The position numbers and the translations under genes are program-made. 64,000 nt of DNA from an uncultured Lachnospiraceae bacterium (GTDB lineage Bacteria > Bacillota > Clostridia > Lachnospirales > Lachnospiraceae), in contig CAMNTM010000010.1 in NCBI GenBank assembly GCA_946558465.1, positions 1,574 to 65,573 of the forward strand. The letters run 5' to 3'. The notes under the pieces are model-generated. The model was given only the letters and a program-made list of their open reading frames with translations. It did not search any database and had not been told where the DNA came from. Shown one piece after another: positions 52,988 through 64,000 of this stretch (its first letter is position 1; each line of letters begins with the position of its first letter).

Positions 52988-53857
52988 TTATTTTCCATTC
53001 ACAAGCTCCATCAGATACTGTCCATAAGCAGTTTTCTGAATAGGAGAAGCCAATTTTTCCAACTGCTCTTTATCTATAAAATTCCTGTTATAAGCAATTT
53101 CCTCAATACATGAAATATATAGTCCCTGACGATTTTGATAGGAGGCCACAAAATCAGCCGCATCAATTAAGGCTTCTGGTGTTCCCGTATCGAGCCATGC
53201 GAAACCACGACCTAACAATTTTACTTTTAACTCTCTTTTTTCAAGATAGACATTATTTATGCTGGTAATTTCCAGTTCTCCCCTGGCAGAAGGCTTTACA
53301 GACTTCGCGATTTCTACCACATGATTATCATAAAAATATAACCCCGGCACAGCATAATTTGATTTTGGATGCTCTGGCTTTTCCTCAATTGATAGCACCT
53401 CATATTCATCTGAAAATTCCACAACTCCGTAATCCTCAGGATTTTTTACATAATACCCGAAGATAAGCGCTCCCTTATCCAAACACGCCGCACGTCTAAG
53501 AATTGTCGAAAAGCTTTGCCCGTAGAAAATATTATCTCCAAGTACAAGAGCCACATTATCACTGCCAATAAATTTTTCTCCTATAATGAACGCCTCCGCT
53601 AATCCTTTGGGCTTTTCCTGAACTTCATAGCTGATAGAAATTCCCAGTTGTGAACCATCTCCCAACAACTCCTGAAAAACAGGAACATCTCTTTTCGTAG
53701 ATATCAGCAAGATTTCCCGAATTCCCGCCAGCATCAATGTAGATAGCGGATAATAAATCATCGGCTTGTCATAAATCGGAAGTATTTGTTTTGACACTGC
53801 ATATGTCATGGGATATAGCCGCGTCCCCGAACCTCCTGCTAAAATAAGTCCCTTCAT
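52988..53857 (-). CDS. rfbA: glucose-1-phosphate thymidylyltransferase
   Basis: [26 protein letters not shown] and the [13 protein letters not shown] region. Confidence 0.96.
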
Positions 53858-53869
53858 CTATTCACCCCA

Positions 53870-54949
53870 TTATCTTATGTGATACATCTCTTTATAATAC
53901 TTCTGATATTCACCGCTAGTAACGTCTTCTACCCATTCCTGATGTTCAAGATACCACTGTACTGTTTTTTTTATTCCTTCCTCAAAACCAGTCTCCGGGT
54001 ACCAGCCTGTTTCGACTTTCATCTTATCTGGTGCGATTGCATATCTTCGGTCATGTCCCTTTCTATCTTCTACATAGGTAATCAAACTTTCACTGATATA
54101 TTTCTTTCTGCTGTCACTATCAGCCAGTAATTCGTTAAGTACCTGAAGAATTGTTTTTACAATCTGTATGTTTGTTCTTTCATTATGCCCGCCTATATTG
54201 TAAGCCTCATAAAGACGTCCTGTTTCCTGAACCATATCTATCGCTTTCACATGGTCCGTAACGTACAGCCAATCCCGTATATTCAGCCCATCTCCATATA
54301 TCGGAATTTTTTCTCCTTTTAACGCGTTATGAATTGTAAGAGGAATTAACTTTTCCGGAAATTGGTAAGGTCCATAATTATTACTGCAATTAGTTATATT
54401 GGCCGGAAACCGGAACGTATCGATATATGATTTCACCAGCAAATCCGATGAAGCCTTACTGGCAGAATAAGGACTGTGAGGGCTGTATGGTGTCGTCTCA
54501 TAGAAGAAACCTTCTTCTTCGAGAGAACCATAGACTTCATCTGTGGAAACATGGAGAAACTTTTTATCTTTCTTAAATGTCCCATCTGAATTCTCCCAAG
54601 CTGCCTTTGCTGCATTCAGCAGCACTGACGTGCCCAAAACATTTGTTCTGACAAAAATCTCTGGATCCTTTATACTTCTATCCACATGACTTTCTGCCGC
54701 AAAATGAACTACCCGGTCAATGTCATAATCGCAAAAAATCTGCTCTACTACACCTCTATCGCAGATGTCTCCTTTTATAAAAATATAATTTTCGCTTTGT
54801 GATATGGTTTCCAAATTTTTGAGATTCCCTGCATAGGTCAATTTATCAAAATTTATAACACGGATTTCTTCCGCATATTTAAGCATAATATACTGTATAT
54901 AATTGGAGCCGATAAAACCTGCTCCTCCTGTAACTAAATAAGTCCGCAT
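53870..54949 (-). CDS. rfbB: dTDP-glucose 4,6-dehydratase
   Basis: LVTGGAGFIGS, STDEVYG and YSASKASSD (YxxxK). The track start at 54982 is TTG and overlaps the upstream gene. ATG 54949 gives the canonical N-terminus MRTYLVTGGAGF. Confidence 0.95.
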   Translation of the reverse strand: MRTYLVTGGAGFIGSNYIQYIMLKYAEEIRVINFDKLTYAGNLKNLETISQSENYIFIKGDICDRGVVEQIFCDYDIDRVVHFAAESHVDRSIKDPEIFVRTNVLGTSVLLNAAKAAWENSDGTFKKDKKFLHVSTDEVYGSLEEEGFFYETTPYSPHSPYSASKASSDLLVKSYIDTFRFPANITNCSNNYGPYQFPEKLIPLTIHNALKGEKIPIYGDGLNIRDWLYVTDHVKAIDMVQETGRLYEAYNIGGHNERTNIQIVKTILQVLNELLADSDSRKKYISESLITYVEDRKGHDRRYAIAPDKMKVETGWYPETGFEEGIKKTVQWYLEHQEWVEDVTSGEYQKYYKEMYHIR

Positions 54950-54972
54950 TTGTTCTTTCATCCTTTTAATCT

Positions 54973-56100
54973 CTATTTCCAAAAGCTCCCGACTGCTTCC
55001 GCCACTTCTTCTACTTTTCTTTCACTTAATTCATAATACATTGGAAGGCGCAGAAGTCTTTCGCTCTCCTTTGTTGTGAACTTATCCTCTCCAAAAAACC
55101 TGCCATATTTTCTTCCAGCCGGGGCAGAATGAAGCGGAACATAATGGAATACTGCCGATATCCCCTTCTCCTTAAGATATTGTATCAGACTAGTTCTCTC
55201 CCCTAAGTCTTTTACTTTTAAATAAAACATATGCCCATTGGGAACACAGCCTTTGGGAACTGTCGGAAGTTCTACATATCCTTTCTCCTTCAAAGGCAGA
55301 AGCAGCTCATAATATAACCGATACAATTTCAGTCTCTTTTCATTAATTATATCTGCTTTTTCAAGCTGCGCATAAAGATATGCTGCATTTAATTCGCTGG
55401 GAAGATAAGAAGAGCCTTTTTCCACCCAGGAATACTTATCTACCATTCCCCGAAAAAATTGACTGCGGTTTGTTCCCTTTTCACGGATAATCTCGGCATT
55501 CGCCACATCCTTCTTGTTATGAATTAAAAGAGCCCCCCCCTCTCCCATACTGTAATTCTTTGTTTCATGGAAACTATAACAGCCAAAATCTCCAATTGTT
55601 CCAAGTGCTTTTCCTTTGTAACTAGACATTACTCCCTGTGCCGCATCCTCAATAACGAGCAGGCCATGCTTCTTTGCAATATCCATAATAAAGTCCATCT
55701 CACAGGCTACGCCTGCATAATGAACAACTACAATCGCTCTTGTCCTTTCAGTAATCGCTTCCTCTATTAATCTTTCATCTATATTCATAGTATCCGGCCG
55801 TATATCTACAAAAACCGGCACCGCACCACGAAGCACAAATGCATCTGCTGTAGACACAAACGTATAGGAGGGCATAATCACTTCCTCACCCGGATATATC
55901 TCACACAAGAGTGCCGCCATCTCTATAGCATGGGTACAGGAGGTCGTAAGAAGTGCTTTCGTTGTGTTCGTTCGATTTTCTATCCATTCATTACACTTCT
56001 TTGTAAACTCTCCATCTCCACAGATTTTTCTTTTTTTAATCGCAGTGCTGATATACTCTTCTTCTTTTCCCACATATGGAGGAACATTAAATGGAATCAT
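54973..56100 (-). CDS. dTDP-4-keto-6-deoxyhexose 4-aminotransferase (WecE/VioA-like, DegT/DnrJ/EryC1 family)
   Basis: The N-terminus MIPFNVPPYVGKEEEYISTAIKKRKICGDGEFTKKCNEW closely parallels my recollection of E. coli WecE. The PLP-lysine region is SFHETKNYSMGEGG. Confidence 0.9.
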   Translation of the reverse strand: MIPFNVPPYVGKEEEYISTAIKKRKICGDGEFTKKCNEWIENRTNTTKALLTTSCTHAIEMAALLCEIYPGEEVIMPSYTFVSTADAFVLRGAVPVFVDIRPDTMNIDERLIEEAITERTRAIVVVHYAGVACEMDFIMDIAKKHGLLVIEDAAQGVMSSYKGKALGTIGDFGCYSFHETKNYSMGEGGALLIHNKKDVANAEIIREKGTNRSQFFRGMVDKYSWVEKGSSYLPSELNAAYLYAQLEKADIINEKRLKLYRLYYELLLPLKEKGYVELPTVPKGCVPNGHMFYLKVKDLGERTSLIQYLKEKGISAVFHYVPLHSAPAGRKYGRFFGEDKFTTKESERLLRLPMYYELSERKVEEVAEAVGSFWK

Positions 56101-56102
56101 AA

Positions 56103-58457
56103 CTATTCTTTTTCCTTCTCTTTTGCCAAATATTGTTCTTTTCTTTCTTCCAAGTACTTAAAAGTAGTTTCCGGAACTAATTTATATATCACACTAAAAT
56201 CTCCTGTTTTTAAAGCCTTACGTACTCTGGAAGCACTAATCACATCACCGCCTGCCTCTTTTCTTGGGATCTCGCTCACCCTTATTCCGTAACGCGGCAA
56301 GATATCTTTCATACTTTCATTATAGCTGCGTGTAACCATGTCAATTGGCTCCTCACCGACAAATCTTCTTGTAATACGAAGAGGAGCCGCGATATATTTT
56401 GCAAAAATATCCACATCCAATGCAGTATCTACCCCTATAGAATCAGGAGAATCCTTAAGGAAATATCCTGGAAATGTCACAGAACTAATAATCAGCTTCC
56501 CACTAGGAATTACAATCACATTTCCAAATTCAGCAGTTCCGGCCCTCACCAGCTGGATACGGTCCTGGAACGGAAAAAACGATTTATCCTCCTCTACGAC
56601 AAAAATATACAGATGATCTACCTGGCCTGCCGCTCTTTCTATGAGATACTTATGTCCTAAAGTAAACGGATTGCAGTTCATAACAATTGCACCGATCACT
56701 CCTTCTTTCCATGAATCCGGAGTCATCTCCTTCACCATGCTGAGATACTCCCGTGCCTGTTCCCTATACATACACTCTTGTTGAACATTTACTGCCTGCT
56801 CCTCTAAATAGAACTCACTGCCCTCCGTATCTGACGTTCTTTTCAAATCAGGCTCCAGTAAAGAAAACAACTTATGCGCAGCCAGTTGATATCCTCTATA
56901 GTTACAATGGACAACACTATTAAAATACACACTCTCATTTATTACCGGATTATTTAACGCAGTGCTGATATCCCATTTTTTGTAATCAGTTCCTATCGGC
57001 ATATACCCTGCATAACTGATCACAACTATATCTCCACTTCTAAATTTTAGATCATAAAGCTGCTTATAAGTCTGATCAATATTTCCCCCCCAGGTTCCCA
57101 TATTCACAACCTTCCAGTTACACTCTGGAATTCTGCTGTTAATCTCTTTTTGAAGAAAACTTGAAATCGTCTGCGAATCCTCAACTGCATATCCAAAAAA
57201 CACACAGCCTCCAAGCATATATATGGTATTTCTGCTATTCTCCGGCTGGTCTACAGTATATCTTTCCCCATTTGTAACATTAATGCAAGCACTTTTTTTA
57301 TTCTCGTGCCGGATTTTCCCTGAGCTTAACTCTATCTTATTTGGAACTGCAAAAATCTGTTCTAAATACTCTTTCGTACACTTTTCTTCATAGATCCCTT
57401 TCAAAAATTCCTTATAGGGTTCCGGATTCTCTTTTATGTTATATAGATTATAATTTTCCCTTTCTTCCAATTCCACAGAGGTCACTTCATGCTTTGGGAA
57501 GAGCGGAACATTCATAGCCCAGTTCCAATTTACAAGATGTAATTCTACTCCCTTCTCTTTTAAAATAGTGTGAAAATAATTACATAGATTTTCCATAATC
57601 CACGTACGGAACAAAACAATAAACCTGCGAACAACAATTCTGTGATTCTGCTTGTTCCTCTGATAAAATTGTTCTGTCCCCAATAGATTCCCATTTTGTA
57701 TAAGCATTACCTTTTCTACATCTGTACAGGAAAGCTTTGCATCAGCGGCATAAATCACTTTTTTTCCTTTATATTTCCTGACAACCTGATCTGCTAAAGG
57801 TGTTCTCTCGGAAAAAAGGATATTCCAGCCTGTATCCAGAAAAATATCACAAAATCTAAAAACAAACGCTTTAAAGCTCTCCGCGTCTTCCACAGCTTCT
57901 TTTATTTCCTCTGGAAAGGCTGCCAGTACTTCTAATTCATATAAAAACTGGCGTATTCCCAATTTATGGAAACCGTTCCTTTCTTCCTCCCACTCCCGTG
58001 TGTCAATATATTCCGTAATATGAAGTGCATTCTCCCCTTCTTCACACTCTGTTTGATCCAATAGATTCAGTTTCCGGATACATTCATTCTCCCCTTCATA
58101 TACAATAGAAGAATATCCGAATAATTTCTTGTATGCCTTAATACTTGCTTCTGTAACCATAGACAGCTGCTTAAACATCCTGCAGTATTCAGTGAGAAGA
58201 ACAATACATTTCAATCCTGCTGTCTTTTCTTCCAGTTCCAATACACGCTCATTTTTATCAATACATAGCAAAATTCCCTTTCCGCCTGACTTACATTTCC
58301 CAATGTCTGTAAAAACAAAATCTCTGGCTTCCTCAAAAATAGACACAAGCGTTTCATCAAGCACCAGCATATACTTATATCCCTGGCTCTGGAACAGCCG
58401 AATCATCTGTTCTTTATTCTTCTCTGTTAATCTGCATATTTCCTTTATATCTGTCAT
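56103..58457 (-). CDS. 784-aa multidomain protein: unknown N-terminal region, SGNH-like domain with Cys at the nucleophile position, and a CitC-type ligase domain
   Basis: GGAGG RBS. The stop lies 2 nt from the wecE-like start. See the domain features and findings for motifs. Confidence 0.8.
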   Translation of the reverse strand: MTDIKEICRLTEKNKEQMIRLFQSQGYKYMLVLDETLVSIFEEARDFVFTDIGKCKSGGKGILLCIDKNERVLELEEKTAGLKCIVLLTEYCRMFKQLSMVTEASIKAYKKLFGYSSIVYEGENECIRKLNLLDQTECEEGENALHITEYIDTREWEEERNGFHKLGIRQFLYELEVLAAFPEEIKEAVEDAESFKAFVFRFCDIFLDTGWNILFSERTPLADQVVRKYKGKKVIYAADAKLSCTDVEKVMLIQNGNLLGTEQFYQRNKQNHRIVVRRFIVLFRTWIMENLCNYFHTILKEKGVELHLVNWNWAMNVPLFPKHEVTSVELEERENYNLYNIKENPEPYKEFLKGIYEEKCTKEYLEQIFAVPNKIELSSGKIRHENKKSACINVTNGERYTVDQPENSRNTIYMLGGCVFFGYAVEDSQTISSFLQKEINSRIPECNWKVVNMGTWGGNIDQTYKQLYDLKFRSGDIVVISYAGYMPIGTDYKKWDISTALNNPVINESVYFNSVVHCNYRGYQLAAHKLFSLLEPDLKRTSDTEGSEFYLEEQAVNVQQECMYREQAREYLSMVKEMTPDSWKEGVIGAIVMNCNPFTLGHKYLIERAAGQVDHLYIFVVEEDKSFFPFQDRIQLVRAGTAEFGNVIVIPSGKLIISSVTFPGYFLKDSPDSIGVDTALDVDIFAKYIAAPLRITRRFVGEEPIDMVTRSYNESMKDILPRYGIRVSEIPRKEAGGDVISASRVRKALKTGDFSVIYKLVPETTFKYLEERKEQYLAKEKEKE
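56148..56705 (-). other. [citrate (pro-3S)-lyase] ligase (CitC)-like adenylating domain (residues about 585-770)
   Basis: IVMNCNPFTLGHKYLIE (the HxGH nucleotidyltransferase motif in the CitC context), SSVTFPGYFLK, RRFVGEEP and VISASRVRKAL. Confidence 0.75.
56853..57236 (-). other. SGNH/GDSL-like domain (residues about 408-535) with divergent catalytic residues
   Basis: The blocks appear in canonical order and spacing. Block I is TIYMLGGCVFFG (GDS replaced by GGC, Cys418). Block II is VVNMGTWGGN. Block III is DIVVISYAGY. Block V is NSVVHCNYRGYQLAA (His516 retained). Recognised by eye only. Confidence 0.5.
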
Positions 58458-58470
58458 CCAAACCTCCTGC

Positions 58471-59409
58471 TTAATCTTCTATATCCTCATTCAGTGATTC
58501 ACGAATCACAAATTGAGGTGATTCATTGATGCACATATATATCCTGCCGATATATTCTCCTATCATTCCCAGTACTAAAAGAATAATACCTCCCAGAATC
58601 AGCATAATGCTCACTGTAGAGCTCCACCCAATCGCAACCGTTGGATGAACAATTTTATTTATAATTGTAAGCAATGCACACAAAAGTCCCACAAACGATG
58701 AAAACACACCAAAAAAGCTGGCAATCCGTAAAGGTTTGATTGAAAATGCAGTAAATCCATTCAGCCAAACTCCTAAAAGCTTTTTAAATGAATAACCGGA
58801 CTGTCCTAACATCCTTTTCCTGTGCTTCACCGGTAAATATCCAATATTTCTCGTTGTCCGATAAACTAGACCTGAAATATACGGATAAGCATGATGATAA
58901 CGAATCATCTCATCAATCACAAATCTTCTCGCCAAAGAAAAGCTGACAACACGCTCTGTGGCAGGTCTGTCAAACATTACCTTTGCCATCCAGCTGTTTA
59001 CCTTTGACCCCAGACGCCGGAATATATTAAACTTTGCCTCTTCACAGGTTCCATAAACCACATCAAAATCCTGCTCTTTCAAAAGCCCCAAAGCAGTCTT
59101 CGTACTGTCAAGAGGACTCTGGCCGTCATCATCTATTGTAATCACATAGTCTCCTGTAACCTTAGAATATCCCGCCATTACAGCTGATGCCTGACCAAAA
59201 TTCTTTGCCAGGCACACACCTTTTATCCGTTTATCTTTACACAGCTCTTTAATTGTATTCCATACATGATCCGGAGAATAATCGTTCACCAATATAATCT
59301 CGTAATCATAATCTTGTAATGACTGCATAATACCCTGAATCTCTGCTACTACTCTTCCAATCGTATTCTCCGACCTATAACACGGAATTACATATGATAT
59401 CTTCTCCAT
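58471..59409 (-). CDS. GtrB/ArnC/CsbB-type polyprenyl-phosphate glycosyltransferase (GT2 with C-terminal TM pair)
   Basis: ISYVIPCYRSE, ILVNDYSPD and ITIDDDGQ (the DxD region). Two C-terminal helices are present (FFGVFSSFVGLLCALLTII and VSIMLILGGIILLVLGMIGEYIGRIY). ATG 59409 follows GGGGAAGAG. Confidence 0.88.
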   Translation of the reverse strand: MEKISYVIPCYRSENTIGRVVAEIQGIMQSLQDYDYEIILVNDYSPDHVWNTIKELCKDKRIKGVCLAKNFGQASAVMAGYSKVTGDYVITIDDDGQSPLDSTKTALGLLKEQDFDVVYGTCEEAKFNIFRRLGSKVNSWMAKVMFDRPATERVVSFSLARRFVIDEMIRYHHAYPYISGLVYRTTRNIGYLPVKHRKRMLGQSGYSFKKLLGVWLNGFTAFSIKPLRIASFFGVFSSFVGLLCALLTIINKIVHPTVAIGWSSTVSIMLILGGIILLVLGMIGEYIGRIYMCINESPQFVIRESLNEDIED

Positions 59410-59410
59410 T

Positions 59411-60160
59411 TTATACACTCTTCCCCAAATCGTCTACTACATCTCTCATCTGATAAAATCCTGTTTTTCCCTTAATAAATTTTGCAGCAAGAAGAGCGCC
59501 TTTTGCAAAAGCCTTTCTTGAAAAGGACTCATGCTCAATGGTAATTCTTTCCTCCTCACTGGCCGCTGTCACCTCATGGACTCCTACATACCCTCCTGCT
59601 CTAACTGAAGATATGGGCGTCTCCCCTCTGTCAATCGCTTTTGAAATCAACTTAGCCGTAGTCGTTACTCTCGGTTTATCTTTACGGTGACGCTCCACAA
59701 TTTCAAAATCAAATTCCGGCAAGATTCTCGATAACTTAGCTACAAATTCCATCAGCAAGTTAATTCCTAATGTCAGATTTGGCGCATACACCAGTCCAAA
59801 TTCTCCTGACCTTCCCAGTTCTTCCAAAAAATCTTGTTCATATCTTGTAAAATTAGTAGTGCAAATCACAAGATTCTTTTTCGACTTATTACAGATTTCT
59901 GCCAGCTTTAAAGACGTTTCCTTTCCTGAAAAATCAATAACCACATCTACTTCTTTTTCCCTCAAAGCCTGTCCGCTTTCTGAAAGTCTGTATAAATATG
60001 TTTCCGTCGGCGCCATTCCAATCAGCTCTCCGATATCCTTTCCAGCTGTCAGACTTGTATCTCTGCAGATTCCCATAACCAGCTGATTTTCCGAATCCAA
60101 AATGATTTTTCTGGCTAATTCCTTTCCTGCACGTCCCATACCACATACTGCAATATTCAT
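59411..60160 (-). CDS. divergent DapB (4-hydroxy-tetrahydrodipicolinate reductase) family oxidoreductase
   Basis: Rossmann N-terminus MNIAVCGMGRAGKEL. VVIDFS, LVICTTNF and VYAPNLTLGINLL parallel DapB. The substrate-loop signature is only partly kept (ERHRKDKPRVTTTA). Confidence 0.8.
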   Translation of the reverse strand: MNIAVCGMGRAGKELARKIILDSENQLVMGICRDTSLTAGKDIGELIGMAPTETYLYRLSESGQALREKEVDVVIDFSGKETSLKLAEICNKSKKNLVICTTNFTRYEQDFLEELGRSGEFGLVYAPNLTLGINLLMEFVAKLSRILPEFDFEIVERHRKDKPRVTTTAKLISKAIDRGETPISSVRAGGYVGVHEVTAASEEERITIEHESFSRKAFAKGALLAAKFIKGKTGFYQMRDVVDDLGKSV

Positions 60161-60164
60161 ATTA

Positions 60165-60914
60165 TTATCTCCTTCTACTTGTATAAATCTCAGGATTCCA
60201 AGAATTGTACATCATATCTGTTAAAGATACAATATCAAATACCGGCAGCTTCGATACTTCCTGTATATCCCTGGAAAATGGCGGCATATTCGTACATTCC
60301 AGAACAACTGCCCCAATGGAGTCATCAGATTCCAACATTTCGCTTGTTGCCTGTCTAAGCTCTCTTCTACATGCTTCTACTTCTACTTCTGTCCAATTCT
60401 GCACTGTAAAATGTGTAAAATTAGGCTTATCTTCAAGTCCTTTAATCACACAATCCGCTTTGTTCACCCCTGCTGCCCTCAAATGACCGTCACTTAAGGT
60501 TCCTTTACTAGCTGTTAGAACACCTACCTTTTTTGTACCGATCATCCGTTTTACCATAGGCACCATCAAAAGCGCTGACGTGAAAACAGGAATACGAACT
60601 GCCTCCGACAATTCCTTCTGGAACAACGCTAAAAAACCACAGGAAGTTGTAATGGCTTTCACTCCTTCACTCTCAAGCTCCTTCGCTGCATCAATAAAAG
60701 GACAGATATCTTCGGCGGTCAATTCCATCACCACCTTCTTGGGCGTCCCTCCCACAACCTTCTTATACAATACCGGATACTTCCATGTCCTTGCATTTCC
60801 CACATCTCCTTCAATCCGGGGAAATATAGAATCCAATATCAGAATACCGATGTCAAAGCCATAGGTGTTAAATCCCCCGTATGCTATTGTCCCCTGTATC
60901 TGTCGGTTATCCAT
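60165..60914 (-). CDS. Asp/Glu/hydantoin racemase-superfamily protein (two-Cys type)
   Basis: About 250 aa with candidate catalytic Cys motifs ITTSCGF and VLECTNMPPF, about 118 aa apart. ATG 60914 overlaps the ATP-grasp stop (TAATG). Confidence 0.7.
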   Translation of the reverse strand: MDNRQIQGTIAYGGFNTYGFDIGILILDSIFPRIEGDVGNARTWKYPVLYKKVVGGTPKKVVMELTAEDICPFIDAAKELESEGVKAITTSCGFLALFQKELSEAVRIPVFTSALLMVPMVKRMIGTKKVGVLTASKGTLSDGHLRAAGVNKADCVIKGLEDKPNFTHFTVQNWTEVEVEACRRELRQATSEMLESDDSIGAVVLECTNMPPFSRDIQEVSKLPVFDIVSLTDMMYNSWNPEIYTSRRR

Positions 60915-62152
60915 TACCAATTGATCCTCCTCACTCCGTCCGTTCCTTTCGTTTCTATTTGTAAAGTCTGCTCCACAAGCTTCAAGCTTTCAAAACATTC
61001 CTTACGGGAATCCCCATATACTAAAATCGGACCATGTTTTCGTGTATCGTCTGTCAGTTCATATACCTCCTGCCCTTCTTTAAGTCCGTCTAAACAAATT
61101 TTATACACTCCCGGTATTTTTTTCACTTCCTCTACACCTGCTATCTTTGTGATAACACCTGGAACTAATTCGAAGCAGCGCCATGCAGACACTTTCTTTT
61201 TCAGCTTAATTCTGTTTAGATGATACTTGGTCCCGTTAAGTACATGCTCAATTAACATCTCGTTTGTGTTAATTCCTGATGCCAAAGGAGTCAGATCAGA
61301 CGACAAATATACGCCGCCTCCTCTTGCTGCTATCTCCACAAGGTACACTCTGTCGTCGTTTTCACAGTAAATGTATTCTCCGTGAGTAATTCCAAATTCC
61401 AGTCCCAAGCCTTCTACCAGCTTCTTGTTAGTTTCCAGAACCTTTTTTTCTTTCTCATCTTTGATTAAATCTGGAGAAGAAAACATACACATTTTAGAAA
61501 TATACATATTAGGTTTATCAAAATACTCCTTGATACCCAAATCCGTATTGATATATTCATAATCAAGAGCCAAACCGTCTACAATGTATTCCTTTCCCTG
61601 TATAAATTCTTCAATAATAGCCTTTTTATTTCCTGAACATTCTATTGCATCTCTTACTGCAATCTCCAGCTCTTTCAGAGCATTTACTTTATGGACACCT
61701 CTGCTTCCACTGCTGTTTGTTGGCTTTACCATAACTGGATACCTCATGTTTGAGACCAAACAAACAGCTTCCTGATAATTCTCCGCCTGTCCGAACTTAG
61801 GAACAGATATCCCCGCCTTCTCTGCCTCTGTACGCATGAGATACTTGTCCGAAAATTTCATAGCTGTATGGTACCCAATTCCTTTTAATCCCAGCTTTTC
61901 CGAAACATAGGCCACCGTCGGAACAGAAACATCCGTCTGATCTGTCAATACGGCATCTACCTGCTCTTTTTCTGCAATTTTCAAAATGCCTTCTTTGTCA
62001 CGAATATCACAATAATAACATCTATCAGCCACTCGAAAACCTGGATAATCTCCTTTGATGCTGACAGCTATTACCTCAGCACCTTTTTCTTTACAAATAC
62101 CCATAAATGGAATCTGTCCATTGTTAGCGCCCAATATCATTACTTTCTTCAT
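60914..62152 (-). CDS. ATP-grasp carboxylate-amine ligase (L-amino-acid-ligase-like)
   Basis: A pre-ATP-grasp Rossmann region MKKVMILGANNGQ. Also DKYLMRTEAEKAGISVPKF, YPVMVKPTNSSGSRGV, IIEEFIQGKEY and YLVEIAARGGG. Confidence 0.85.
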   Translation of the reverse strand: MKKVMILGANNGQIPFMGICKEKGAEVIAVSIKGDYPGFRVADRCYYCDIRDKEGILKIAEKEQVDAVLTDQTDVSVPTVAYVSEKLGLKGIGYHTAMKFSDKYLMRTEAEKAGISVPKFGQAENYQEAVCLVSNMRYPVMVKPTNSSGSRGVHKVNALKELEIAVRDAIECSGNKKAIIEEFIQGKEYIVDGLALDYEYINTDLGIKEYFDKPNMYISKMCMFSSPDLIKDEKEKKVLETNKKLVEGLGLEFGITHGEYIYCENDDRVYLVEIAARGGGVYLSSDLTPLASGINTNEMLIEHVLNGTKYHLNRIKLKKKVSAWRCFELVPGVITKIAGVEEVKKIPGVYKICLDGLKEGQEVYELTDDTRKHGPILVYGDSRKECFESLKLVEQTLQIETKGTDGVRRINW

Positions 62153-62211
62153 GAATTATTTCCCTTCTGAAACATTTTTACTGTATATTTGAACTTCCTG
62201 CATTTATCATG

Positions 62212-63438
62212 CTAAAGCCAATCTGGGCCATTGAGCAAATGAATATAGTAATAAACCCCAGATATAAAATGGGCGGCCAGCAATATATCTCCAATTTTAA
62301 ATATCCGCTCTAGCCTCCCCCCTGAAATTTTTGAACTGGATTTTTTCTTTTGGAAATATTTTATAACAGCAATCACCCATAAAAAATAAACGGACAGTTG
62401 CTTCGCCCATGAAAAATTACCGGCACTATTATCCAAAGCTTCTGCCATACACGCAGACTCACAGAATGATACTACCGAAAATAAAATAATCATCTGTAAA
62501 TACTTATCTGTAAATATCTCTTTACGTGCAATAGTCAAAATACAAAATACTGGAAACGCATAGAGTAAAACAGAAGAAACTACTATATTAGGAGCACTGT
62601 TTCCTACAAAACCAAAGAAGGTAAATCTAATCCCGCCTCTGCTATATTCGCTTCCATCACCATAGTAAAACAAAACCTGGTATAAAAGATACAGGCAGCT
62701 TGGTAAAAAGGCCAAACCCGACTGCATGCAAAAAGGAAAAATTTTCCCTCTCGAATTTATCAGCTCAATCAATAAAAATACGCCTACTGCTGGAAGAAAT
62801 CCCTGTAGAAATGACGGCTTAGCCAATACCGTATAAAATAAAAGCAAAGAAAGTATTCCTATTTTCTTCCATGAAAACAACTTTACTTTGCCTTCATCTC
62901 TTAAAATTTCCTTGTATTCATAATAATATTTTACATATAAAAAAATTGCTAACAATGCTCCCGCCTTTACTACTGCCTGAGTAGGACTGTGCCAAATATT
63001 GGGAGAACTCACCCCTCTGTAAACCTCTTTGCTATACCATGGATAATAAATCGCTGTTACATATGTCAAAACAAAAGTAAGCGCACAAATCTCATATTCA
63101 CTACATACTCCTTTTAGAAAACACGTCAATATCATATAAGTAACAATAACTGTCAATACTACAAAAACAGTAACTACAAAAACGCCAGAATCATATATAG
63201 AAATATGAAAAATTCTGCTAAAAAACGCTGTCAATATATGATATACCGGATAAGTAAACCTTCTAAGAAAAGGAAATGGATTTGTAAACTCCAACAACGC
63301 TGCATTATCTGAATGTTTAATTAAATCTGAGCCTCCACCCCTTTCCATAATAGAATTCGTCAATATGAAGGTTCCGTAAAATATAACAACACACACAAAG
63401 CCTATCGGCCATATCCAATTTTTCTTTTGTCCTCTCAT
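62212..63438 (-). CDS. polytopic membrane protein (at least 10 helices); candidate GT-C-type transferase or polymerase
   Basis: 408 aa and almost entirely hydrophobic helices, with a first loop ERGGGSDLIKHSDNAALLEFTNPFPFLRR. I recognise no motif with confidence. The start overlaps the upstream stop (TAATG). Confidence 0.7.
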   Translation of the reverse strand: MRGQKKNWIWPIGFVCVVIFYGTFILTNSIMERGGGSDLIKHSDNAALLEFTNPFPFLRRFTYPVYHILTAFFSRIFHISIYDSGVFVVTVFVVLTVIVTYMILTCFLKGVCSEYEICALTFVLTYVTAIYYPWYSKEVYRGVSSPNIWHSPTQAVVKAGALLAIFLYVKYYYEYKEILRDEGKVKLFSWKKIGILSLLLFYTVLAKPSFLQGFLPAVGVFLLIELINSRGKIFPFCMQSGLAFLPSCLYLLYQVLFYYGDGSEYSRGGIRFTFFGFVGNSAPNIVVSSVLLYAFPVFCILTIARKEIFTDKYLQMIILFSVVSFCESACMAEALDNSAGNFSWAKQLSVYFLWVIAVIKYFQKKKSSSKISGGRLERIFKIGDILLAAHFISGVYYYIHLLNGPDWL

Positions 63439-64000
63439 TATTCAGACCTCCAAAGCAAACTATAAAGCAAAGTAATGCCTTTTTCTAAAACAACAGAAAG
63501 CATCCAGGAAATTACACATGTCCATATTAACGTACTTACAAATGTAATGATTAGAGCACCGGTAAACGATATATATTCGAGCAGTTTTTGCATTATATAA
63601 TATCCCCATACGTATATCACTATAACATGTGACACATAAATATAAAATGATATTACCCCCCCCCTTGCCAGAAAAGGACAACTTAGCGCTTTTTTTGCAC
63701 GCTCACATTGAAACAAAAAAAGAAGAGCAACAAAGCATAAGATGCCCTGTCCAATAAATAAAACCTCATTTTCCCCCATATGAAGGGACATAACCTTATA
63801 TACGGTGAATAATCCCATAAAAACGAGGCCTATAATTTCCTTTTTCAACTTAAAAGTATGATTCAGATAATAAACAACTCCTCCCATACACCCAATCCCA
63901 ACCCAGGTCCATCCACAGGCAAGAGCACCCACAATTACACATAACAATACTATCAAACTTATTTTCTTTACTCTAAAAGCCGAAAATAAAACAGCAATAA
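63438..64000 (-). CDS. acyltransferase-3 (OatA/WecH-like) family membrane protein, C-terminal part (5' end beyond the window)
   Basis: The reading frame stays open to the window edge. The track TTG at 63956 is not a real start, since upstream in-frame codons read ...IAVLFSAFRVKKIS. Multi-helix sequence with VISFYIYVSHVIVIY, resembling the conserved C-terminal motif of acyltransferase_3. Confidence 0.55.
   Translation of the reverse strand, partial: IAVLFSAFRVKKISLIVLLCVIVGALACGWTWVGIGCMGGVVYYLNHTFKLKKEIIGLVFMGLFTVYKVMSLHMGENEVLFIGQGILCFVALLFLFQCERAKKALSCPFLARGGVISFYIYVSHVIVIYVWGYYIMQKLLEYISFTGALIITFVSTLIWTCVISWMLSVVLEKGITLLYSLLWRSE

What the first reader, a model, noticed from the sequence alone, without database searches (positions are those of the whole stretch)
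59411..62152. Translationally coupled trio of ATP-grasp ligase, two-Cys racemase-family protein and divergent DapB-like reductase inside a sugar operon
Seen: the ATP-grasp stop and the racemase start share TAATG. The racemase stop lies 4 nt from the DapB-like start, and the DapB-like stop lies 1 nt from the GtrB-like start. The ATP-grasp protein has the EIAARGGG-type C-terminal motif I associate with L-amino-acid ligases rather than with biotin carboxylase or PurK types. The racemase-family protein has two candidate catalytic Cys (TSCGF and ECTNM). The DapB-like protein keeps the fold-defining segments. However, the canonical substrate signature (as I recall it from E. coli DapB, E-x-H-H-x-x-K-x-D-A-P-S-G-T-A) is altered to ERHRKDKPRVTTTA, so it is unlikely to be the housekeeping lysine-pathway enzyme. 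Established: Qui4N and Fuc4N residues in several Gram-negative O-antigens carry N-linked amino-acyl or dicarboxylic acyl groups, but the ligases involved are poorly defined. Inference: this trio prepares an amino or dicarboxylic acid by stereo-inversion and/or reduction and ligates it to the sugar 4-amine.
Basis: partly seen in the sequence, partly recalled or inferred. Interest (0 to 1): 0.62.

Follow-up and report, generated by a model that had tools for sequence, protein, structure and literature searches.

The report
Sugar-acylating ligase, racemase, DapB-like reductase
Three tightly packed genes in a mouse-gut Lachnospiraceae cell-wall sugar operon (an ATP-driven amide ligase, a two-cysteine racemase-type enzyme and a spare, altered copy of the lysine-pathway enzyme DapB) form a cassette that recurs in gut anaerobes and most likely puts an unusual acid side group on a 4-amino sugar, extending chemistry known from Bacillus cereus.

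Summary
The three genes, their junctions (TAATG; TAA+4 nt+ATG; TAA+1 nt+ATG) and the quoted motifs are all there.

- **The DapB-like gene is a spare copy.** The genome has a canonical dapB beside dapA and a third paralogue. All 12 other carrier genomes tested also keep a better-scoring DapB.
- **It belongs to a small separate clade.** These proteins keep Glu, the first His, Lys and Thr-Ala of the DapB signature. They lose the second His and D-A-P-S-G.
- **The clade is linked to glycan loci.** Of 24 species-level loci, 18 have an ATP-grasp ligase directly upstream and 16 also have the racemase-type gene between. All 18 have a DegT/WecE sugar aminotransferase nearby. Four stand alone in non-glycan surroundings.
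- **The common form is a five-gene block:** ATP-grasp, racemase, DapB-like, GtrB/ArnC-like GT2, CitC fusion.
- **The ligase type often pairs with DegT genes.** More distant relatives of the ligase sit beside DegT genes in many Clostridia.

The closest characterised system is Bacillus cereus Pat/Pyl, where an ATP-grasp ligates 2-oxoglutarate to a UDP-4-amino sugar and the mature polymer carries 2-hydroxyglutaryl.

My reading: the ligase N-acylates dTDP-Fuc4N, the DapB-like enzyme reduces the acid's 2-oxo or imino group, and the racemase sets its stereochemistry. The identity of the acid is inferred, not shown. This is a new variant of a known kind.

The parts
60914..62152 (-). ATP-grasp carboxylate-amine ligase, L-amino-acid-ligase-like (412 aa). 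Proposed N-acyl ligase for the sugar 4-amine.
   Evidence: PF13535, PF07478, PF02786 and LAL_C2 PF18603 are above cut-off. Best PDB relatives are 4dim, BL00235 (3vot), BacD and RizA, aligned over the full length. The motif E273-I-A-A-R-G-G-G280 is invariant in 16 orthologues and aligns to EVGARIGG of BL00235.
60165..60920 (-). Asp/Glu/hydantoin-racemase-family protein, PRK07475 subfamily (249 aa from ATG 60914, or 251 aa from TTG 60920). Proposed epimerase of the acid's C2.
   Evidence: PF01177 scores 50 bits and NF005679 scores 279 bits against a cut-off of 231. The two Cys (TSCGF, ECTNM) align to the catalytic Cys of aspartate racemase 1jfl and are invariant. The AF2 model has pLDDT 87, and its best folds are Asp, hydantoin and Glu racemases.
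59411..60160 (-). Divergent DapB paralogue (249 aa) with an altered substrate signature. Proposed NAD(P)H reductase of a 2-oxo or imino dicarboxylate.
   Evidence: PF01113 plus PF05173, and TIGR00036 at 155.7 bits against a cut-off of 122. The AF2 model has pLDDT 93.6, and the top 50 PDB folds are all DapB with TM 0.8-0.9. In the subfamily alignment E156, H158, K162, T168, A169, G7 and G9 are invariant, while the second His and DAPSG are lost. The group forms a separate clade with SH-aLRT 100.
58471..59409 (-). GT2 polyprenyl-phosphate glycosyltransferase (GtrB/ArnC/PgfS-like), coupled to the DapB-like stop.
   Evidence: PF00535. NF007986 ArnC scores 157 bits and PgfS 150 bits, both below cut-off. 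It follows the DapB-like gene in 10 of 19 glycan-type loci.
56103..58457 (-). 784-aa fusion with a CitC-type (citrate lyase ligase) C-terminal domain. Fifth gene of the conserved block.
   Evidence: PF08218 scores 230 bits. It is present in 9 of 19 glycan-type loci and in L137-L139.
54973..56100 (-). WecE-type dTDP-4-amino-4,6-dideoxyhexose aminotransferase. It supplies the amine and releases 2-oxoglutarate.
   Evidence: NF008687 scores 632 bits against a cut-off of 375, and TIGR02379 scores 630 bits. A DegT-family gene lies within eight genes of every ATP-grasp-linked DapB-like gene.
52988..54982 (-). RmlA (52988-53857) and RmlB (53870-54982). They supply dTDP-4-keto-6-deoxyglucose.
   Evidence: ORFs and translations. 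Homologues lie in the same place in L010, L030 and L139. I did not scan these two proteins against family libraries. The naming rests on sequence features I recognise.
62212..63438 (-). 408-aa polytopic membrane protein upstream of the trio. Candidate extracytoplasmic transferase.
   Evidence: No Pfam hit. Homologues lie upstream in L010. Related blocks carry YfhO (L138) and GtrA (L137).

Best explanation
The trio is the acid-handling core of a mobile glycan-tailoring cassette.

Proposed pathway:
1. RmlA, RmlB and WecE make dTDP-4-amino-4,6-dideoxy-D-galactose (Fuc4N). WecE releases 2-oxoglutarate as it does so.
2. The ATP-grasp enzyme activates a carboxylate as an acyl phosphate and forms an amide with the sugar's 4-amino group.
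3. The acid is a C4 or C5 dicarboxylate with a 2-oxo, 2-amino or 2-imino group. 2-Oxoglutarate, as in Bacillus cereus Pyl, is the single most likely donor. Asp or Glu come next.
4. The DapB paralogue keeps the NAD(P)H site and the catalytic Glu/His/Lys and Thr of DapB. It reduces the C2 carbonyl or imine of that acid, in its open or cyclised form, free or already sugar-bound.
5. The two-Cys racemase-family enzyme inverts the resulting C2 centre.
6. The GtrB/ArnC-like GT2 then moves the acylated sugar to undecaprenyl phosphate for extracytoplasmic transfer to a wall polymer.
7. The CitC fusion adds a further small acyl group.

Shown: gene anatomy, family membership, residue conservation, paralogy, and conserved linkage to DegT and GT2 genes.
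Inferred: all substrates, the order of the steps, and the Fuc4N configuration.
For: - **Paralogy.** A canonical dapB-dapA pair lies elsewhere in the genome. All 12 other carriers tested also keep a second DapB.
- **Separate clade.** The altered-motif proteins form one clade, SH-aLRT 100. The catalytic E/H/K/T and the GxG motif are invariant, and the DapB fold is intact.
- **Linkage.** Of 24 species-level loci, 18 have an ATP-grasp directly upstream and 16 also have the racemase gene. A DegT gene is nearby in all 18.
- **Reciprocal test.** Three of three racemase orthologues at 65-69% identity sit in the order ATP-grasp, racemase, DapB-like, GT2, CitC. GtrA or YfhO lies nearby.
- **Wider pairing.** ATP-grasps at 24-33% identity neighbour DegT/WecE in 15 of 29 Clostridia loci. 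One locus reads WecE, ATP-grasp, RmlA, RmlB.
[quoted passage not shown] The mature B. cereus polymer carries 2-R-hydroxyglutar-5-ylamido-Fuc2NAc4N, which requires a 2-oxo reductase (PMC6222762).
- **Known products of this kind.** D-aspartyl-Fuc4N and N-acetyl-D-aspart-4-yl-Qui4N are described (PMC10609480).
- **Expression hint.** Contigs from mouse-gut metatranscriptomes, 100% identical to the window, cross all three junctions.
Against: - No biochemical data exist for any member.
- I could not obtain Pyl's sequence, so homology to it is untested.
- Two-Cys racemases are known for amino and imino acids, not for 2-hydroxy acids. A plain 2-hydroxyglutaryl product therefore leaves the racemase unexplained.
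- Four altered-motif DapB genes stand alone in non-glycan surroundings (L014, L015, L021, L024). This suggests a free-metabolite substrate and possibly a different role.
- DapB chemistry is a conjugate reduction of a cyclic imine, not a simple ketone reduction.
- Metatranscriptome contigs can contain DNA.
Confidence: 0.6

Rival explanations
1. Plain D-amino-acid decoration. The racemase-family enzyme makes D-Asp or D-Glu from the L-form. The ATP-grasp ligates it, through the side-chain or alpha carboxyl, to the sugar 4-amine. The CitC fusion N-acetylates it. The DapB-like enzyme has a side role, such as salvage or making a co-substrate.
For: - The racemase-family protein has both catalytic Cys aligned with aspartate racemase.
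- Its remote homologues sit in amino-acid catabolic clusters with DAO oxidoreductases and branched-chain-type ABC transporters.
- D-aspartyl on Fuc4N (Treponema medium) and N-acetyl-D-aspart-4-yl on Qui4N (Providencia stuartii O33) are known structures.
- The ligase is L-amino-acid-ligase-like.
Against: - It gives no reason for the DapB-like gene, although that gene is the most constant partner of the ligase.
- ATP-grasp plus DapB-like occurs without the racemase in L018, L030 and L006. In this survey the racemase orthologues were never seen without the DapB-like gene.
Confidence: 0.2
2. Imino-acid or opine-type acyl group. The DapB-like enzyme reduces a free cyclic or acyclic imine to a saturated imino acid. 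Candidate substrates are a lysine-pathway intermediate such as tetrahydrodipicolinate, a pyrroline or piperideine carboxylate, or an amino-acid/pyruvate Schiff base. The racemase epimerises the product and the ligase attaches it.
For: - DapB is by ancestry a reductase of a cyclic alpha-imino dicarboxylate, and the general-acid His and Lys are kept.
- Remote homologues of the racemase lie directly after an Octopine_DH gene (L133, L134). Others lie beside HcnABC/opine-oxidase-like genes (L130).
- An alanopine derivative of Qui4N and 5-oxoproline-type N-acyl groups are known in O-antigens.
- Stand-alone DapB-like genes imply a free metabolite as substrate.
Against: - The cassette has no DapA-like aldolase or other imine-forming enzyme.
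- The carboxylate-binding D-A-P-S-G loop is rebuilt, so the dipicolinate-type substrate is probably not kept.
- No such decoration is known in Gram-positive polymers.
Confidence: 0.13
3. The ATP-grasp amidates a sugar carboxylate (a uronic acid) with an amine or amino acid made by the other two enzymes, as in Campylobacter jejuni Cj1438 or TupA-type systems.
For: ATP-grasp amidoligases for uronates exist (my own knowledge). There is a weak PF14397 'sugar-transfer associated ATP-grasp' hit at E = 0.0045, below cut-off.
Against: - No UDP-sugar dehydrogenase lies in the operon.
- A DegT 4-aminotransferase is the constant neighbour.
- The enzyme is not TupA-like.
Confidence: 0.04
4. A redundant housekeeping lysine/diaminopimelate enzyme set that merely happens to lie in the sugar operon.
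For: The DapB-like protein passes the TIGR00036 equivalog cut-off.
Against: - A canonical dapB-dapA pair lies elsewhere.
- The substrate signature is altered throughout the clade.
- Linkage to ATP-grasp and DegT genes is conserved across four phyla.
Confidence: 0.03

Closest known systems
Bacillus cereus ATCC 14579 UDP-yelosamine pathway (Pat aminotransferase and Pyl ATP-grasp; Hwang et al. 2014, J Biol Chem 289:35620, PMID 25368324)
   Same: A DegT-type 4-aminotransferase sits next to an ATP-grasp that forms an amide between a dicarboxylic acid (2-oxoglutarate) and the 4-amino group of a nucleotide-linked, fuco-configured 4-amino-6-deoxy sugar. The mature polymer carries the reduced 2-hydroxyglutaryl form. 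The setting is a Gram-positive wall polysaccharide.
   Different: - The nucleotide here is dTDP (RmlA, RmlB, WecE), not UDP-GlcNAc-derived.
- The cassette adds a DapB paralogue and a racemase-family gene, which are not reported for B. cereus.
- It continues with a GtrB/ArnC-like GT2 and a CitC fusion, not a small phosphoglycosyl transferase.
- Sequence relatedness to Pyl could not be tested here.
DapB, 4-hydroxy-tetrahydrodipicolinate reductase (EC 1.17.1.8; TIGR00036; PDB 1arz, 4ywj, 1vm6)
   Same: - The two-domain fold is the same, with TM 0.8-0.9.
- The GxG NAD(P)H motif is kept.
- Glu, the first His, Lys and Thr-Ala of the signature are kept.
- The score is above the equivalog cut-off.
   Different: - The second His is not conserved.
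- D-A-P-S-G is replaced by x-x-V/P-T-x, and the loop is one residue shorter.
- It is never the only DapB in a genome.
- It is linked to ATP-grasp and DegT genes, not to dapA.
L-amino-acid ligases (BL00235 PDB 3vot, BacD/YwfE 3vmm, RizA 4wd3) and the uncharacterised 4dim protein
   Same: It shows full-length similarity, including the LAL_C2 domain and the E-x-(A/G)-A-R-x-G-G motif.
   Different: - Scores are far below every equivalog cut-off. BacD scores 62.9 against 850, and DdaF scores 40.9 against 840.
- The genomic partner is a sugar aminotransferase, so the nucleophile is probably a sugar amine and not an amino acid.
Arn pathway of Gram-negative bacteria (ArnB, ArnA, ArnC, ArnT)
   Same: The logic is the same: DegT-type transamination, N-acylation of the new amine, transfer by a GT2 to undecaprenyl phosphate, then extracytoplasmic transfer. 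The GT2 scores 157 bits against the ArnC model. The comparison of pathway logic rests on my own knowledge.
   Different: The sugar, the acyl group and the acylating enzyme all differ (an ATP-grasp in place of a formyltransferase). The target polymer is also different.
Aspartate, glutamate and hydantoin racemases (PF01177; PDB 1jfl, 2eq5, 5hj7)
   Same: It has the same fold and both catalytic Cys.
   Different: Identity is only 13-19% and TM about 0.55-0.6. It belongs to the uncharacterised PRK07475 subfamily, and its substrate is unknown.

Membership tests
DapB (4-hydroxy-tetrahydrodipicolinate reductase) | Two-domain DapB fold (PF01113 plus PF05173) | tested here: met
   Pfam scores are 80.3 and 99.7 bits. 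The AF2 model has pLDDT 93.6, and the top 50 PDB matches are all DapB.
DapB (4-hydroxy-tetrahydrodipicolinate reductase) | N-terminal GxGxxG-type NAD(P)H motif | tested here: met
   G7 and G9 are invariant, and GRAGK is conserved in 34 sequences.
DapB (4-hydroxy-tetrahydrodipicolinate reductase) | Substrate signature E-x-H-H-x-x-K-x-D-A-P-S-G-T-A | tested here: not met
   The window has ERHRKDKPRVTTTA. Clade-wide, only E, the first H, K, T and A are invariant, and the loop is one residue shorter. The genome's own canonical DapB has ERHHNQKIDAPSGTA.
DapB (4-hydroxy-tetrahydrodipicolinate reductase) | Housekeeping role: sole or main copy, linked to dapA and lysine genes | tested here: not met
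   The genome has three DapB_C genes, and the best-scoring one lies next to dapA. All 12 other carrier genomes have a better-scoring second DapB.
DapB (4-hydroxy-tetrahydrodipicolinate reductase) | HTPA/DHDP reductase activity | not testable with these tools
   This needs an enzyme assay or complementation of an E. coli K-12 dapB deletion.
Asp/Glu/hydantoin racemase superfamily (PF01177), PRK07475 subfamily | Family profile above cut-off, and the fold | tested here: met
   PF01177 scores 50 bits against a cut-off of 31. NF005679 scores 279 bits against 231. The Foldseek best hits are Asp, hydantoin and Glu racemases.
Asp/Glu/hydantoin racemase superfamily (PF01177), PRK07475 subfamily | Two catalytic Cys, one in each half-domain | tested here: met
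   TSCGF aligns to MPCNTAH and ECTNM aligns to GCTE of 1jfl. Both Cys are invariant in 16 orthologues and in two remote homologues.
Asp/Glu/hydantoin racemase superfamily (PF01177), PRK07475 subfamily | Racemase activity and substrate | not testable with these tools
   I know of no characterised member of PRK07475. The Asp racemase and CuyB models score only about 30 bits.
L-amino-acid-ligase-type ATP-grasp | ATP-grasp core plus the LAL C-terminal domain 2 | tested here: met
   PF13535 scores 55.9 bits, and PF18603 scores 35.7 bits against a cut-off of 29.4.
L-amino-acid-ligase-type ATP-grasp | Equivalog-level match to a characterised LAL (BacD, DdaF, RizA) | tested here: not met
   BacD scores 62.9 bits against 850, and DdaF scores 40.9 bits against 840.
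Pyl-type NDP-4-amino-sugar:carboxylate ligase (B. cereus) | ATP-grasp encoded beside the DegT 4-aminotransferase of a 4-amino-6-deoxy sugar pathway | tested here: met
   A WecE or other DegT gene lies within eight genes in all 18 linked loci. More distant ATP-grasps neighbour DegT in 15 of 29 loci.
Pyl-type NDP-4-amino-sugar:carboxylate ligase (B. cereus) | Sequence homology to Pyl and ligation of 2-oxoglutarate | not testable with these tools
   Pyl's sequence and the 2014 paper were not obtainable here.

The most novel reading that the evidence does not exclude
The altered-motif DapB clade may be a new enzyme activity that acts on a glycan side chain. It would reduce the 2-oxoglutar-5-ylamido group of a nucleotide-linked sugar, possibly in its cyclised 2-hydroxy-5-oxoproline form, which resembles DapB's cyclic substrate. 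If so, it is an example of the unidentified reduction step needed to make hydroxyglutaryl-type glycans. The PRK07475 racemase would then be the first two-Cys epimerase to work on a sugar-bound acyl group.
Probability: 0.2. Interest if true: 0.75.

Novelty: new variant of a known kind. Interest (0 to 1): 0.55.

Why it matters
Surface glycans of gut Clostridia are almost uncharted chemically, yet they shape immune recognition and phage adsorption.

This cassette is seen in many gut metagenome contigs. One racemase orthologue alone is indexed in 263 blocks of the collection. It predicts a wall polymer carrying an acidic, stereochemically defined N-acyl-Fuc4N.

It also gives a clean case of a core lysine-pathway enzyme being duplicated and retooled for glycan tailoring. 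Annotation pipelines currently mislabel the copy as housekeeping DapB, which can mislead metabolic reconstructions.

Finally, it offers candidate enzymes for ATP-driven, CoA-independent acylation of nucleotide sugars, which would be useful for glycoengineering.

Tried and rejected
- **Literature.** Searches for the trio (ATP-grasp with dihydrodipicolinate reductase and racemase; DapB with nonulosonic; aspartate racemase with O-antigen) found nothing relevant.
- **The Pyl paper.** The 2014 paper (PMC4271244) and PMC2168959 are not held. The PLoS One QuiNAc paper says nothing about Pyl. Homology to Pyl therefore stays untested.
- **First tree.** Two rows had been extracted in the wrong frame and spoiled it. 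I rebuilt it without them.
- **Is the altered motif simply the housekeeping form in Eggerthella or Oscillospiraceae?** Rejected. Those genomes have a second, canonical DapB.
- **Are racemase homologues in the same family always beside a DapB-like gene?** They are not. Homologues at 31-44% identity lie in catabolic clusters. This shows the PRK07475 family is broader than the cassette.
- **The 320-aa protein of the racemase-less variants.** It has no Pfam or NCBIfam hit and only a weak PLP-fold relative. It is absent from this genome.
- **Uronate amidation.** I considered this and set it aside, because there is no dehydrogenase gene and the DegT linkage is constant.


Full report
**Observation.** All genes in 52988-64000 lie on the minus strand and are nearly gapless. 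The ATP-grasp gene (60914-62152) ends in TGG TAA, and its final A begins an ATG (TAATG). A TTG six bases upstream (60920) sits 5 nt after GGAGG and may be the real start of the next gene, giving a 7-nt overlap. The racemase-family gene ends in TAA, followed by 'taat' and the ATG of the DapB-like gene. That gene ends in TAA, followed by one base and the ATG of a GT2 gene. The quoted peptide motifs are present.

**Family assignments.**
- The 412-aa protein is an ATP-grasp with the C-terminal domain of L-amino-acid ligases (PF18603, above cut-off). Its best solved relatives are the uncharacterised 4dim protein, BL00235, BacD and RizA, over the full length. Its invariant E-I-A-A-R-G-G-G aligns with E-V-G-A-R-I-G-G of BL00235, whereas carbamoyl-phosphate synthetase has E-M-N-P-R there.
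- The 249/251-aa protein belongs to PF01177 and passes the uncharacterised NCBIfam subfamily PRK07475. Its two Cys align with the catalytic Cys of Pyrococcus aspartate racemase and are invariant in 16 orthologues. An AlphaFold model (pLDDT 87) is about equally distant from Asp, hydantoin and Glu racemases.
- The 249-aa protein has both DapB domains and even passes the dapB equivalog cut-off. Its model (pLDDT 93.6) matches only DapB structures.

**The DapB-like gene is a retooled paralogue.**
- The window's genome has three DapB_C genes. The best-scoring one carries ERHHNQKIDAPSGTA and lies directly beside dapA. A second paralogue has EMHDQWKKDAPSGT.
- A database search found about 280 relatives, the best 120 at 44-100% identity to the window protein. 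In 34 of them G7, G9, E156, H158, K162, T168 and A169 are invariant. The second His is free to vary, D-A-P-S-G is gone, and the loop is one residue shorter.
- Of 80 species-level genomic loci, 24 carry this altered motif. The other 56 (39-46% identity) carry canonical-type signatures and have no ATP-grasp neighbour.
- On a tree of 62 sequences the 24 altered-motif proteins form one side of a branch with SH-aLRT 100. They are apart from the carriers' own housekeeping DapBs.
- All 12 other carrier genomes tested have a second, better-scoring DapB.
- In a library of 1.84 billion cluster representatives, only the first handful of hits, roughly eight to ten clusters at 50% identity, show the altered motif. 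The clade is small.

**Linkage.**
- Among the 24 loci, 18 have an ATP-grasp directly upstream of the DapB-like gene, and 16 have the racemase-family gene in between. Two are cut by contig ends. Four stand alone in non-glycan surroundings: beside gyrBA-trpS in L015, beside argCJB in L021, and in L014 and L024.
- All 18 linked loci have a DegT-family aminotransferase within eight genes. Among the 19 glycan-type loci (those 18 plus the truncated L038), ten have the GtrB-like GT2 and nine the CitC fusion.
- The carriers span Lachnospiraceae, Oscillospiraceae, Eubacteriaceae, Selenomonadaceae, Eggerthellaceae and Desulfovibrio, so the cassette moves horizontally.
- Reciprocally, three of three racemase orthologues taken from a separate search sit in the order ATP-grasp, racemase, DapB-like, GT2, CitC. 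GtrA or YfhO lies nearby.
- The cassette is rare. No other genome among 300 of the same family has a racemase orthologue above 44% identity. None of about 400 genomes sampled from the class (one could not be scored) has an orthologous ligase.
- The wider pairing is common. ATP-grasps at 24-33% identity occur in 45 of those genomes and neighbour a DegT/WecE gene in 15 of 29 loci fetched. One locus reads WecE, ATP-grasp, RmlA, RmlB. The ligase-aminotransferase pair is therefore the general module, and the racemase and DapB-like genes are a rare add-on.

**Variants.** Roseburia loci carry DegT, PglC-like transferase, PLP-fold protein, ATP-grasp, (racemase), DapB-like, FemAB-like and GT4. Eggerthella and Ruminococcaceae loci carry DegT, LAL-type ATP-grasp, a 320-aa protein without family hits, a PylC-like ATP-grasp and the DapB-like gene, with no racemase. 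The DapB-like gene is thus the constant partner of a ligase, and the racemase is optional.

**Remote relatives of the racemase.** Those at 31-44% identity lie in catabolic clusters with one of the following:
- DAO-type FAD oxidoreductases;
- an Octopine_DH gene directly upstream;
- HcnABC/opine-oxidase-like subunits;
- branched-chain-type ABC transporters.

This fits an amino- or imino-acid substrate class.

**Comparison with what is known.** No paper describing the trio was found.
- ATP-grasp N-acylation of a nucleotide 4-amino sugar is established. [quoted passage not shown]
- The mature B. cereus polymer contains 2-R-hydroxyglutar-5-ylamido-Fuc2NAc4N (PMC6222762). A 2-oxo reduction must therefore follow ligation.
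- Amino-acyl groups on the same sugars are also known: D-aspartyl-Fuc4N, N-acetyl-D-aspart-4-yl-Qui4N, an alanopine derivative of Qui4N, and 5-oxoproline derivatives (PMC10609480).
- 2-Oxoglutarate is also the by-product of the WecE reaction itself (established knowledge of DegT aminotransferases).

**Mechanism proposed.**
1. WecE makes dTDP-Fuc4N.
2. The ATP-grasp acylates the 4-amine with a 2-oxo, 2-amino or 2-imino dicarboxylate.
3. The DapB paralogue reduces C2 with NAD(P)H.
4. The two-Cys enzyme sets the C2 configuration.
5. The GT2 loads the product on undecaprenyl phosphate.
6. The CitC fusion adds another small acyl group.

The general model (acid handling plus ligation to the sugar amine) I hold at about 0.6. 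Within it, a 2-oxoglutarate-derived group is the single most likely donor, at about 0.3 overall. A simple D-Asp or D-Glu comes next, then an imino or opine-type acid. The stand-alone DapB-like genes and the lack of precedent for two-Cys racemases on hydroxy acids are the main unexplained points.

**Expression.** Contigs from three mouse-gut metatranscriptome runs match the operon at 100% identity and cross each of the three junctions. This is compatible with co-transcription in vivo, although DNA carry-over cannot be excluded.

**Verdict.** This is a real, conserved, horizontally mobile cassette. It is a new variant of a known kind of system (ATP-grasp acylation of amino sugars). It contains an uncharacterised DapB-derived clade that pipelines mislabel as housekeeping DapB.

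Noticed in passing
G000 contig C24:18787-19191 (L002:1117-1917): A third DapB paralogue with EMHDQWKKDAPSGT, where the second His is replaced by Asp. It is conserved in two other carrier genomes (L102, L103) and forms its own clade. Its function is unknown.
   Followed up: partly
L006:6692-7654, L030:7672-8637, L018:7591-8670, L012:19761-20735: A family of 320-360-aa proteins without Pfam or NCBIfam hits. Only the Roseburia member shows faint PLP fold-type-I similarity. It precedes a PylC-like ATP-grasp plus DapB-like pair where the racemase gene is absent.
   Followed up: partly
L133:6333-8400 and L134: A remote PRK07475 homologue lies directly after an Octopine_DH-family gene and a 2-oxoacid:ferredoxin oxidoreductase, and is followed by EutH. 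This may be an opine or imino-acid pathway in Lachnospiraceae.
   Followed up: partly
L129 (G028:C36) and L130 (G075:C8): Two or three PRK07475 paralogues lie within 10 kb. They sit with DAO, Fer2_4/Pyr_redox_2 and Fer4/SO_alpha_A3 genes (HcnABC/opine-oxidase-like), two D-2-hydroxyacid dehydrogenases and ABC transporter genes.
   Followed up: partly
L020:8523-10004: In a Selenomonadaceae MAG the ATP-grasp and racemase genes are broken into fragments (165 aa; 71, 119 and 140 aa) upstream of an intact DapB-like gene. This is either decay of the cassette or assembly error.
   Followed up: no
L035: A contig labelled as a Burkholderiales MAG carries a DapB nearly identical to those of Bacillota MAGs (L029, L031), with the same neighbours. 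It is probably a binning error.
   Followed up: no
L016/L008 (Butyrivibrio sp. LB2008): The five-gene block, with its WecE-like gene, is inserted in a nonulosonic-acid cluster (NeuB, NeuC-like, PglD-like, CMP-transferase, PglF-like genes).
   Followed up: no
L018:10776-11774, L019:6844-7842: A FemAB-like, aminoacyl-tRNA-type transferase lies directly after the DapB-like gene in Roseburia. This hints that the acyl group carries a free amine that is extended further.
   Followed up: no
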